This document shows positions 3,425-3,718 of a stretch of 4,596 bases of DNA, piece after piece. A program made the position numbers and the translations under genes. Positions within the stretch are counted from its first letter, which is position 1. Every line of letters begins with the position of its first letter. Source of the DNA: Escherichia coli (GTDB lineage Bacteria > Pseudomonadota > Gammaproteobacteria > Enterobacterales > Enterobacteriaceae); the NCBI RefSeq assembly GCF_003334815.1, contig NZ_QOWO01000076.1. The stretch is one strand, 5' to 3'. A model generated the notes under the pieces. That model made no database searches and was not told the origin of the DNA. It was given only the letters and a program-made list of their open reading frames with translations.

Positions 3425-3718
3425 TCAAATATCACCTGATGTAATGTCAATGATAATATTAAGTGCGCTCTGAACAACATCTTTCTTGGTGTGATTAACA
3501 TCTGACAAAAAGAACATCAGCTTCTTTATTATGTTCTTGTTGTTTATTATTTCACGCTCACAGAATAAAGCGTTGACTGCCTCTTCTATGACATTTCTCT
3601 CGTAAAAAAATTGAGAGTTAGCTTCATATAAAATATTGGCCAATTTTTCACCAAAAACCATATTATAATAATCACTGTGCATCTTTCTCCCCCAGGGTTC
3701 AATCAATAATTTTACCAT
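3425..3718 (-). CDS. Hypothetical small protein (97 aa from the first ATG; 85 aa from the internal ATG at 3682, which has a strong RBS); no recognisable family
   Basis: The only ORF of 60 aa or more in the AT-rich 3400..3980 segment that looks real. The internal start MHSDYYNMVFGEKL... is preceded by GGGGGAGAAAG (Shine-Dalgarno about 4 nt upstream). Composition (K/E/N/I/L-rich, slightly acidic) suggests a small helical protein. About 270 bp of AT-rich non-coding DNA lies upstream of it on the minus strand. Confidence 0.5.
   Translation of the reverse strand: MVKLLIEPWGRKMHSDYYNMVFGEKLANILYEANSQFFYERNVIEEAVNALFCEREIINNKNIIKKLMFFLSDVNHTKKDVVQSALNIIIDITSGDI

What the first reader, a model, noticed from the sequence alone, without database searches (positions are those of the whole stretch)
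3425..3718. Orphan AT-rich small ORF with a strong RBS, boxed in by IS3-type ends
The 3400..3980 segment is about 30% GC, far below the flanking IS DNA (~50-60%), which suggests foreign or H-NS-silenced DNA. Its single plausible gene encodes an 85-97-aa, probably helical, slightly acidic protein that I cannot place in any family. It has a strong Shine-Dalgarno sequence at the internal Met and a long AT-rich 5' region. Small acidic proteins in IS-flanked AT-rich pockets are often immunity proteins, antitoxins or small regulators whose partner gene was lost or lies elsewhere. This is the best candidate for something undescribed in the window, but the function is entirely open.
Basis: partly seen in the sequence, partly recalled or inferred. 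Interest (0 to 1): 0.55.

Follow-up and report, generated by a model that had tools for sequence, protein, structure and literature searches.

The report
Mobile AriR/YmgB-family small regulator gene
The "orphan" small ORF is a divergent, mobile copy of the known E. coli AriR/YmgB small regulator family, already named as such in databases but never studied, so it is largely ordinary.

Summary
There is an ORF at 3425..3718 (-) in a 32% GC pocket between IS3-type remnants, with GGAG 4 nt before an internal ATG. It is not an orphan. The protein matches Pfam PF10798 (YmgB/AriR) over the whole model (E 5e-6). It aligns co-terminally with K-12 AriR (30% identity). Its AlphaFold model superposes on the YmgB crystal structure 2OXL (TM 0.85, 1.7 Å), the only convincing PDB fold match. 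RefSeq and UniProt already name it as a YmgB/AriR family protein.

Comparison with an 87% allele shows that only the 85-aa form (3425..3682) is conserved. The 97-aa extension and an upstream 48-aa ORF are not. The roughly 570-bp unit (about 3360..3925) is in about 31% of complete E. coli genomes. On chromosomes it sits beside the fec iron-citrate operon, and it also occurs on plasmids. K-12 lacks it.

Unlike canonical AriR, it is solitary, lacks the Arg74 needed for SpoT binding (Gln here), and has its own conserved upstream dyad (TTCCT-N8-AGGAA).

The most likely function is a small helical protein-binding "connector", probably acting on the Rcs phosphorelay. This is inferred, not shown. The immunity or antitoxin reading is not supported. 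Verdict: an uncharacterised new member of a known kind, of low interest.

The parts
3425..3682 (-). The conserved coding sequence: an 85-aa YmgB/AriR-family protein (stop codon at 3425-3427, ATG at 3682-3680).
   Evidence: Pfam PF10798, E 4.7e-6, model positions 2-59 of 59. BLASTP to K-12 AriR gives 30% identity over 83 aa, co-terminal. The AF2 model against 2OXL gives TM 0.85 and rmsd 1.7 Å. The 87% allele and the 46% paralog both start at this Met and are 85 and 86 aa.
3683..3718 (-). A non-conserved 5' extension that gives the 97-aa (ATG 3718) and 93-aa (TTG 3706, the RefSeq start) readings. It is probably 5'-UTR and contains the Shine-Dalgarno GGGGGAG at 3687-3693.
   Evidence: In the 87% allele (L002) a 1-nt deletion puts the ATG-3718 equivalent out of frame with Met13. 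There is no SD before 3718 or 3706.
3810..3851 (-). A conserved upstream block containing the dyad TTCCT-N8-AGGAA (3827-3844) followed by an A8 run (3810-3817 on the + strand as T8). It is a candidate operator or 5'-UTR element.
   Evidence: It is 81% identical to the DNA upstream of the 46% paralog P0062 (E 4.7e-7), while the neighbouring DNA is unalignable. It is present upstream of the gene in all 18 gene-bearing loci. The dyad appears in 0 of 200 shuffles.
3853..3858 (-). A perfect TATAAT hexamer, a candidate -10 element, 8 nt upstream of the dyad. The -35 is poor (3 of 6).
   Evidence: Manual scan. It is conserved in L002 but not in register in P0062. The consensus scan found no promoter above background. 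This is a candidate only.
3360..3925 (-). The conserved mobile unit: the gene, about 245 bp upstream and about 65 bp downstream.
   Evidence: Homology to the 87% plasmid allele L002 starts and stops at these limits. In C41(DE3) an IS1A abuts position 3358.
3721..3867 (-). An upstream 48-aa ORF (TTG start, hydrophobic). It is not a gene.
   Evidence: A 28-bp deletion and a 1-nt indel destroy it in L002. It has no family hit.
3127..3168 (.). Left-hand copy of the IS3-type terminal sequence.
   Evidence: Direct repeat D1, 93% identical to 4320-4361.
2956..3087 (+). An IS3-family transposase C-terminal fragment (pseudogene).
   Evidence: RefSeq annotation of the identical region in L013 and L001. 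ORF 2977..3087.
3170..3300 (+). An IS5/IS1182-family transposase fragment (pseudogene).
   Evidence: RefSeq annotation.
3990..4361 (-). An internally deleted IS3-like element: a transposase C-terminal fragment (about 4021-4125), an orfA-like remnant (about 4119-4323) and a terminal sequence (4320-4361). The inner boundary is approximate.
   Evidence: RefSeq pseudogene features and repeat D1.
4428..4596 (.). The end of IS1F, which links the segment to ykiE-fecIR-fecABCDE. It is the only part of the window shared with K-12.

Best explanation
The gene encodes an 85-aa, acidic, all-helical protein. It is a divergent paralog of AriR/YmgB (Pfam PF10798). It is carried as a self-contained unit of about 570 bp with its own upstream control region, in the IS-scrambled island next to the fec ferric-citrate operon and on plasmids of E. 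coli, Salmonella and Shigella.

**Shown here:** family membership by sequence and fold, the true start codon, the limits of the unit, its distribution, its solitary context, and the Arg74-to-Gln replacement.

**Inferred from the family:**
- It works as a small cytoplasmic protein-binding 'connector' rather than an enzyme or toxin partner.
- It most likely binds the cytoplasmic histidine-kinase part of RcsC, alone or with the host's own YcgZ/YmgA/AriR, and so raises Rcs phosphorelay output (more colanic acid, less curli via RprA/CsgD).
- Its ability to switch SpoT towards ppGpp synthesis is probably lost or retargeted, because the Arg that canonical YmgB needs for SpoT binding is Gln here.
- Expression is probably governed by a regulator that recognises the conserved TTCCT-N8-AGGAA dyad, not by BluR/BluF.

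My confidence is about 0.95 for family membership and about 0.35 for the specific Rcs mechanism.
For: **Family membership**
- Pfam PF10798 matches over the full model: E 7e-6 for the 97-aa form and 4.7e-6 for the 85-aa form.
- The PDB sequence search finds 2OXL, YmgB (E 1.5e-3), aligning residues 40-96.
- BLASTP to K-12 AriR gives 30% identity over 83 aa, co-terminal.
- E28, A35, V36, N48-K49-N50-I51 and D68 are invariant across 21 family sequences.
- The AF2 model has pLDDT 80 and five helices.
- Foldseek against the PDB finds 2OXL_A with probability 1.00, TM 0.85 and 1.7 Å, and nothing else below E 2.
- AFDB50 hits are AriR/YmgB proteins from across Enterobacterales.

**Evidence for a real gene**
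- The 85-86 aa frame is kept in three lineages (100%, 87% and 46% identity).
- Against P0062, pS is 0.86 (saturated) and pN is 0.35.
- The exact protein is on at least 1000 contigs.
- The unit is in 1700 of 5426 complete E. coli genomes.
- An upstream element is conserved.

**Family mechanism, from the literature**
- YmgB activates Rcs and binds SpoT independently. R74G abolishes SpoT binding but not mucoidy (PMC10704370).
- YcgZ, YmgA and YmgB interact with each other and with the RcsC HK domain (PMC6900184).
- YmgB signalling is RcsF-independent and independent of the RcsC periplasmic domain (PMC11451591).

**Arg74:** it aligns to Gln71 here. 74 of 80 family sequences have Arg.
Against: - There is no experimental or expression data for this protein, and no paper mentions it.
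- The Pfam score is modest (26.8 bits), and the precomputed Pfam column is blank for this subfamily.
- Identity to AriR is only about 28-30%, so partner specificity may differ.
- Recent selection is not demonstrably purifying: dN/dS is 0.52 against the 87% allele, with 10.5 nonsynonymous and 4.5 synonymous changes, p = 0.135.
- Frameshifted and IS1-interrupted copies circulate.
- No consensus promoter or terminator was found.
- The residues that mediate Rcs activation are unknown, so that activity cannot be judged from sequence.
Confidence: 0.6

Rival explanations
1. It is a hitch-hiking relic. The gene is a formerly functional AriR paralog that now drifts neutrally in the IS-riddled fec island and on plasmids. 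It is kept only because the island is young and clonally spread.
For: - dN/dS of 0.52 is not significantly below 1.
- 1669 of 1711 records are at least 99% identical, so there has been little time for decay.
- Frameshifted variants exist (P0038, P0040, P0053).
- IS1 insertions occur in or at the unit.
- The family-conserved Arg74 has been lost.
- No consensus promoter or terminator was found.
Against: - The frame is intact and of equal length in three lineages down to 46% identity, with saturated synonymous sites (pS 0.86 against pN 0.35).
- An upstream non-coding block is selectively conserved between paralogs.
- The internal start keeps its SD in the 87% allele.
- Most sampled genomes carry an uninterrupted copy: 37 of the 40 listed records in the spread sample show a single full-length uninterrupted match.
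Confidence: 0.2
2. It modulates or antagonises the host's own module. The protein heteromerises with chromosomal YcgZ, YmgA or AriR and alters their output (dominant-negative or specificity-switching), rather than signalling to RcsC itself.
For: - YcgZ, YmgA and YmgB all interact pairwise (PMC6900184).
- YmgB dimerises (2OXL).
- The window gene is solitary, yet nearly all E. coli hosts carry ycgZ-ymgABC (established knowledge; the K-12 locus is).
- The core helices and the NKNI motif are conserved while surface residues such as Arg74 differ.
Against: This is purely inferential, with no interaction data. At 28-30% identity, hetero-dimer compatibility is uncertain.
Confidence: 0.12
3. It is an Hha-like nucleoid-associated or DNA-binding modulator, following the early proposal that YmgB resembles Hha and regulates genes directly.
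For: Lee et al. 2007 (cited) proposed a gene-regulatory role for YmgB. I recall, but did not check here, that they also noted a resemblance to Hha. The gene sits in AT-rich DNA of the kind H-NS and Hha act on.
Against: - Foldseek against the PDB returned no Hha or YmoA structure at E of 10 or less.
- Pfam gives no Hha-family hit.
- Later work places YmgB action in protein-protein contacts with RcsC and SpoT.
- The protein is acidic (pI 4.97), which is unfavourable for DNA binding.
Confidence: 0.05
4. It is an orphan immunity protein or antitoxin whose toxin partner was lost to IS activity.
For: It is small and acidic and lies in an IS-flanked AT-rich pocket.
Against: - It belongs to a different, well-defined family.
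- Three independent contexts share no toxin-like neighbour.
- PADLOC gives only a 13-bit noise hit.
- The TA genes seen on plasmid loci (TacA/TacT-like, ParE, CcdAB) are complete pairs of their own and are not adjacent to the gene.
Confidence: 0.02

Closest known systems
AriR/YmgB of E. coli K-12 (b1166; PDB 2OXL; Pfam PF10798)
   Same: - Similar size: 85 aa against 88 aa.
- Acidic: pI 4.97 against 4.6.
- Same helical fold: TM 0.85 and 1.7 Å.
- Co-terminal alignment at 30% identity.
- Invariant E28, A35-V36, NKNI and D68.
- AT-rich gene: 31% GC against 35%.

   Different: - Not in a ycgZ-ymgA-ariR-ymgC operon and not next to bluR/bluF. It is solitary.
- The Arg74 needed for SpoT binding is Gln71.
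- A different upstream region with its own conserved dyad. There is no similarity to PycgZ.
- It sits on a mobile, IS-bounded unit and on plasmids.
- It scores only 26.8 bits against the Pfam model.
P0062 subfamily: an 86-aa YmgB-like protein on IncF plasmids (e.g. CP076275)
   Same: - It is the closest distinct relative (46% identity) among 1.84 billion representative proteins.
- Same length and same N-terminus (M-x-SD).
- Solitary gene.
- Shares the upstream TTCCT-N8-AGGAA block followed by an A run.
   Different: - It keeps Arg at the AriR-Arg74 position.
- It lies in a conserved non-IS neighbourhood: a PgaB/IcaB-like deacetylase, a 445-aa unknown, an SMR pump, DUF535, an IraM-like anti-adaptor and a GT4 glycosyltransferase.
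- It passes the precomputed Pfam threshold.
YcgZ, YmgA and YmgC (the other small proteins of the K-12 operon)
   Same: They are small helical proteins of similar size that act together with AriR on RcsC (PMC6900184).
   Different: There is no detectable sequence similarity: BLASTP against YmgA gives no alignment, and identity is 8-19% in a forced alignment.
Plasmid- or island-borne copies of small chromosomal regulators (e.g. R27 Hha/H-NS 'stealth' paralogs). This analogy is from my own knowledge.
   Same: It is a horizontally mobile paralog of a small host regulatory protein, carried on conjugative plasmids and islands.
   Different: The family is unrelated, and no functional evidence exists for the window protein.

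Membership tests
YmgB/AriR family (Pfam PF10798) | Significant match to the family profile across its whole length | tested here: met
   PF10798, i-Evalue 4.7e-6, 26.8 bits, model positions 2-59 of 59, residues 28-84. Caveat: the score is borderline, and the precomputed Pfam column is blank for this subfamily.
YmgB/AriR family (Pfam PF10798) | Helical-bundle fold of the YmgB crystal structure (2OXL) | tested here: met
   The AF2 model (pLDDT 80.1, no templates) matches 2OXL_A as the top and only convincing PDB hit: probability 1.00, TM 0.85, rmsd 1.7 Å over 59 columns. AFDB50 hits 3-50 are dominated by AriR/YmgB-named proteins. Caveat: the input alignment contained AriR orthologs.
YmgB/AriR family (Pfam PF10798) | About 85-90 aa, co-terminal with AriR, with the conserved core motifs (A-V in helix 3, N-K-N-I, D68) | tested here: met
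YmgB/AriR family (Pfam PF10798) | Homodimerisation (head-to-head dimer in 2OXL) | not testable with these tools
   Only monomer prediction is available.
AriR orthologs (the ycgZ-ymgA-ariR-ymgC module) | Encoded in the four-gene operon next to bluR-bluF | tested here: not met
   It is solitary in the fec island, on plasmids and in the P0062 locus. It is therefore a paralog, not an ortholog.
AriR orthologs (the ycgZ-ymgA-ariR-ymgC module) | Conserved surface Arg74 required for SpoT TGS-helical binding (PMC10704370) | tested here: not met
   Arg74 aligns to Gln71 in three independent alignments. Arg is present in 74 of 80 family sequences, and Gln occurs only in this subfamily.
AriR orthologs (the ycgZ-ymgA-ariR-ymgC module) | Activates the RcsC/D/B phosphorelay (mucoidy, RprA induction) | not testable with these tools
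   This needs genetics. The residues responsible are not known from the papers read.
Toxin-antitoxin or immunity proteins | A conserved adjacent toxin or effector partner, or a match to known defence or TA profiles | tested here: not met
   No shared neighbour across lineages. PADLOC gives only a 13.2-bit hit. NCBIfam gives nothing relevant.
Hha/YmoA family | Sequence or fold similarity to Hha | tested here: not met
   No Hha or YmoA hit in Pfam or in the Foldseek PDB search at E of 10 or less.

The most novel reading that the evidence does not exclude
The gene is a horizontally mobile signalling 'connector'. In this reading, an AriR-type protein has its own conserved operator (TTCCT-N8-AGGAA). 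It has exchanged the SpoT-contact Arg for Gln and so acquired a different target. The fec island and IncF plasmids would then use it to rewire host envelope-stress, biofilm or stringent-response signalling on arrival, much as plasmid-borne H-NS/Hha paralogs do. Its P0062 sister travels with an IraM-like anti-adaptor, which hints at mobile cassettes of small post-translational regulators.
Probability: 0.15. Interest if true: 0.5.

Novelty: new member of a known kind. Interest (0 to 1): 0.2.

Why it matters
About a third of complete E. coli genomes carry a second, divergent AriR-like protein that K-12 lacks. These include the laboratory B strains (BL21/C41 lineage), EAEC 042 and ST95 ExPEC/APEC. 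All functional work on this family has been done in K-12, so this protein has been missed.

If it is active, it could change Rcs-dependent capsule, curli and biofilm behaviour, or stringent-response set-points, between strains. It would also be a simple natural variant (Arg74 to Gln) for separating the two known activities of the family. Otherwise it is a routine annotation: a known family, already named in RefSeq and UniProt.

Tried and rejected
- **NCBIfam:** scans of the ORF and of the two neighbouring small ORFs gave only noise.
- **Rfam:** no hit anywhere in the window at E of 1 or less.
- **Promoter and terminator scans:** nothing above shuffle background. The 3' region folds no better than shuffles, z = -0.12.
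- **97-aa and 93-aa start codons:** rejected, because the extension is frameshifted in the 87% allele and has no SD.
- **48-aa hydrophobic upstream ORF (3721..3867):** rejected, because a 28-bp deletion and an indel destroy it in L002.
- **Top PDB sequence hit 9s1t (a de novo helical barrel):** rejected as a repetitive-helix artefact with three weak repeated stretches.
- **RcsAB-box reading of the dyad:** rejected, with 0 matches at up to 3 mismatches.
- **Regulon or extra-species search with the dyad pattern:** 53 hits scattered across unrelated phyla, close to my estimate of about 35 expected by chance. None has a YmgB-like gene nearby, except a contaminant contig.
- **Search for an intact 'native' locus with a partner gene:** none found. 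The 87% allele always lies between Tn3 and IS1 fragments on IncF plasmids.
- **Defence or TA reading:** no PADLOC support.
- **Literature:** searches by accession and by family name returned nothing on this protein. One search failed on syntax, and a fec-island search was uninformative.
- **Exhaustive phmmer over 1.84 billion representatives:** only one distinct relative, P0062.

Full report
**1. Observation.**
- It lies at 3425..3718 on the minus strand and is 97 aa.
- It sits in a trough of 29-35% GC. Measured directly, 3400..3980 is 32.0% GC and the CDS 31.4%. The IS66 part of the window is 58.7%, the left IS3 remnant 49% and the right IS3 remnant 43%.
- A 42-nt IS3-like terminal sequence occurs at 3127-3168 and 4320-4361, 93% identical and in the same orientation.
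- RefSeq annotation of identical DNA shows IS3-family transposase fragments on both sides and an IS5 fragment at 3170-3300.
- The internal ATG (3682) is preceded by GGGGGAG, with GGAG ending 4 nt upstream. The two upstream candidate starts have nothing comparable.
- The protein is acidic (pI 4.97 for 85 aa) and predicted to be all-helical.
- ORF length alone is weak evidence in this AT-rich DNA. 35 of 2000 shuffles reach 99 open codons and 121 of 2000 reach 85.

**2. What it is.** The protein is not an orphan.
- Pfam PF10798 (YmgB/AriR) matches over the complete model: positions 2-59 of 59, E 7e-6 for the 97-aa form and 4.7e-6 for the 85-aa form.
- A sequence search of the PDB finds YmgB (2OXL) at E 1.5e-3. 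The nominally better hit, a de novo designed helical barrel, is a repeated-helix artefact.
- I fetched the K-12 ycgZ-ymgA-ariR-ymgC locus. The 85-aa form aligns with AriR (88 aa) nearly end to end, at 30% identity over 83 residues. The two end together, and both carry the N-N-K-N-I-I motif.
- There is no similarity to YmgA, and only 8-19% identity to YcgZ and YmgC.
- An AlphaFold2 model built from a 21-sequence family alignment has pLDDT 80 and five helices.
- Foldseek against the PDB returns 2OXL_A as the single convincing match: probability 1.00, TM 0.85 normalised to the target, and 1.7 Å over 59 columns. The next hit has E 2.6.
- Against AFDB50, the top two hits are the same protein, already deposited as UniProt A0A6S5NQI8 (85 aa) and B3Y1Q0 (97 aa, E. 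coli O111:H-). Both are named YmgB/AriR. Many AriR proteins from Enterobacterales follow.
- RefSeq/PGAP names the gene 'biofilm development regulator YmgB/AriR family protein'. All three start-codon versions are in public collections, and the 85- and 97-aa forms are each on at least 1000 contigs.

**3. Anatomy.** A diverged allele on IncF plasmids (L002; 87% protein identity) shares 575 bp with the window, from about 3925-3933 to 3360, and nothing beyond. Within that alignment:
- A 1-nt deletion between ATG-3718 and ATG-3682 throws the 12-residue extension out of frame.
- A 28-bp deletion plus an indel destroys the upstream 48-aa ORF (3721..3867).
- The 85-codon frame has no indels.
- The only other distinct relative, P0062, also begins at the equivalent Met and is 86 aa.

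The real CDS is therefore 3425..3682. RefSeq's TTG start (3706, 93 aa) and the 97-aa reading are probably over-extensions.

There is no Rfam hit, no promoter above background, and no terminator-like fold.

One non-coding feature stands out. A block at 3810-3851 contains the dyad TTCCT-N8-AGGAA (3827-3844) followed by an A8 run.
- It is 81% identical to DNA upstream of the 46%-identical P0062 gene (E 4.7e-7), while the surrounding intergenic DNA cannot be aligned.
- The arms are invariant and the spacer varies.
- It lies upstream of the gene in all 18 gene-bearing loci I fetched and is absent from the K-12 loci.
- The dyad never appears in 200 shuffles of the window.
- In the window it lies 8 nt downstream of a perfect TATAAT (3858-3853) with a poor -35, so it could be an operator overlapping the transcription start. 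This is conjecture.
- It is not an RcsAB box.
- A scan of 100,044 species-representative genomes gives only chance-level hits without a YmgB-like gene nearby.

**4. Distribution and context.**
- The unit is in 1700 of 5426 complete E. coli genomes, and 1669 records carry it at 99% identity or more.
- It is on 49 PLSDB plasmids of Escherichia, Salmonella and Shigella.
- In ST95, EAEC 042 and strain E2865 the order is fixed: fecABCDE, fecIR, ykiE, IS1F, IS3 remnant, the gene, IS5 and IS3 remnants, a phytase-like esterase, then IS66.
- In C41(DE3), a B-strain derivative, an IS1A abuts the unit at 3358 and the esterase side is gone.
- K-12 MG1655 shares only the IS1F end (4428-4596) and lacks the gene. 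That explains why K-12-based work on this family never met it.
- The 87% allele is always on IncF plasmids between Tn3 and IS1 fragments.
- No neighbour is shared among the three lineages, so the gene is solitary.
- Exhaustive phmmer against 1.84 billion representatives found only one distinct relative, P0062. The other hits are fragments or frameshifted copies. The subfamily is very narrowly distributed.

**5. Selection.**
- Against the 87% allele, dN/dS is 0.52 (10.5 nonsynonymous and 4.5 synonymous changes). This is not significantly below neutrality, p = 0.135.
- The coding part (94.2% identical) is only slightly better conserved than the flanks (92.4% and 89.2%).
- Against P0062, synonymous sites are saturated (pS 0.86) while pN is 0.35, which indicates long-term constraint.
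- Decayed copies exist: frameshifted P0038, P0040 and P0053, and IS1 insertions in L003, H66 and H77.
- Overall the gene is probably functional, but recent purifying selection is not demonstrated.

**6. Mechanism.** What the family does is known from K-12.
[quoted passage not shown] This raises colanic acid and lowers curli through RprA and CsgD (PMC3509220).
- YcgZ, YmgA and YmgB interact with each other and with the RcsC histidine-kinase domain (PMC6900184).
- The signal is RcsF-independent and independent of RcsC's periplasmic domain (PMC11451591).
- Independently, YmgB binds the TGS-helical region of SpoT and drives ppGpp accumulation. R74G abolishes this but not Rcs-dependent mucoidy (PMC10704370).

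In the window protein the Arg74 position is Gln71, consistently in three alignments. Arg is present in 74 of 80 family sequences, including P0062, and Gln is private to this subfamily.

My best-supported reading is as follows:
- It is a small dimeric helical protein-binding connector.
- It most probably acts on RcsC, alone or with the host's native YcgZ, YmgA and AriR.
- Its SpoT control is lost or retargeted.
- It is expressed from its own control region rather than under BluR/BluF.

Family membership and the Arg-to-Gln change are shown. Every functional step is inferred.

**7. Rivals.**
- A drifting relic, confidence 0.2.
- A modulator or antagonist of the host YcgZ/YmgA/AriR complex, 0.12.
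- An Hha-like nucleoid-associated factor, 0.05. There is no Hha hit by sequence or fold, and the protein is acidic.
- An immunity protein or antitoxin, 0.02. There is no conserved partner and no PADLOC support.

**8. Comparison with the known, and novelty.**
- It is a member of PF10798 by profile, fold, size and motifs.
- It is not an AriR ortholog. The operon context and the SpoT-contact Arg were both tested and not met.
- Databases already name it by family, and no paper in the searchable library mentions it.
- I rate it a new, uncharacterised member of a known kind, with low interest (0.2).
- The most novel reading still open is a mobile signalling connector with its own operator and an altered target. 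I give that a probability of about 0.15.

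Noticed in passing
window 3810-3851 (dyad at 3827-3844); also L006 7821-7862: An upstream block, TTCCT-N8-AGGAA followed by an A8-9 run, is conserved between paralogs that share only 46% protein identity. The arms are invariant and the spacer varies. It is present upstream of every copy examined. The binding factor or role is unknown.
   Followed up: partly
L006-L011 (IncF plasmids, e.g. 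CP076275), about 6.5-13.8 kb in L007: The sister paralog P0062 sits in a conserved gene set: a PgaB/IcaB-like polysaccharide deacetylase, a 445-aa protein with no family hit, a Qac/EmrE-like SMR pump, DUF535, an IraM-like anti-adaptor (117.3 bits against a cut-off of 121; Pfam labels it PmrD) and a GT4 glycosyltransferase. The AriR-like plus IraM-like pairing mirrors the K-12 chromosome, where iraM lies about 4 kb from ycgZ-ymgABC.
   Followed up: partly
window about 3358-3360 and 3481-3495; L012, L002, L003: IS1 has hit this small unit repeatedly. IS1A abuts position 3358 in C41(DE3). An IS1-like fragment abuts about 3360 in plasmid L002. IS1A interrupts the CDS near 3481-3495 in L003. Two of 40 sampled genomes have IS1 inside the unit.
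   Followed up: partly
L031 (NZ_JAHZMP010000127.1, 509 bp): A 509-bp contig at 0.87x coverage in the 'Terrisporobacter mayombei DSM 6539' assembly encodes this protein at 100% identity. It is almost certainly E. coli contamination of that assembly.
   Followed up: yes
window 1316-2689 (-): A 457-aa ORF with an N-terminal signal-like sequence. RefSeq names it 'esterase-like activity of phytase family protein' and uses a start 5 codons downstream, giving 452 aa. It is conserved in the fec island of ST95, EAEC 042 and E2865 but missing in C41(DE3). It lies downstream of the YmgB-like gene on the same strand, separated by IS debris.
   Followed up: no
window 1-4427 compared with K-12 (L015): K-12 MG1655 has fecI-ykiE-IS1F directly abutting yjhU, and it shares only window 4428-4596. 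The whole segment of IS66, esterase and YmgB-like gene is absent, which fits an IS1-mediated deletion or a different insertion history.
   Followed up: partly
window 3990-4361 (-): An internally deleted IS3-like element. An IRL-like end and a degenerate orfA start are joined directly to the last ~35 codons of the transposase. RefSeq annotates it as two pseudogene fragments.
   Followed up: no
window 3425-3718; RefSeq WP_223349491.1 and WP_000239862.1: Public annotations disagree on the start codon, giving 85, 93 and 97 aa versions. Comparative evidence supports only the 85-aa version.
   Followed up: yes
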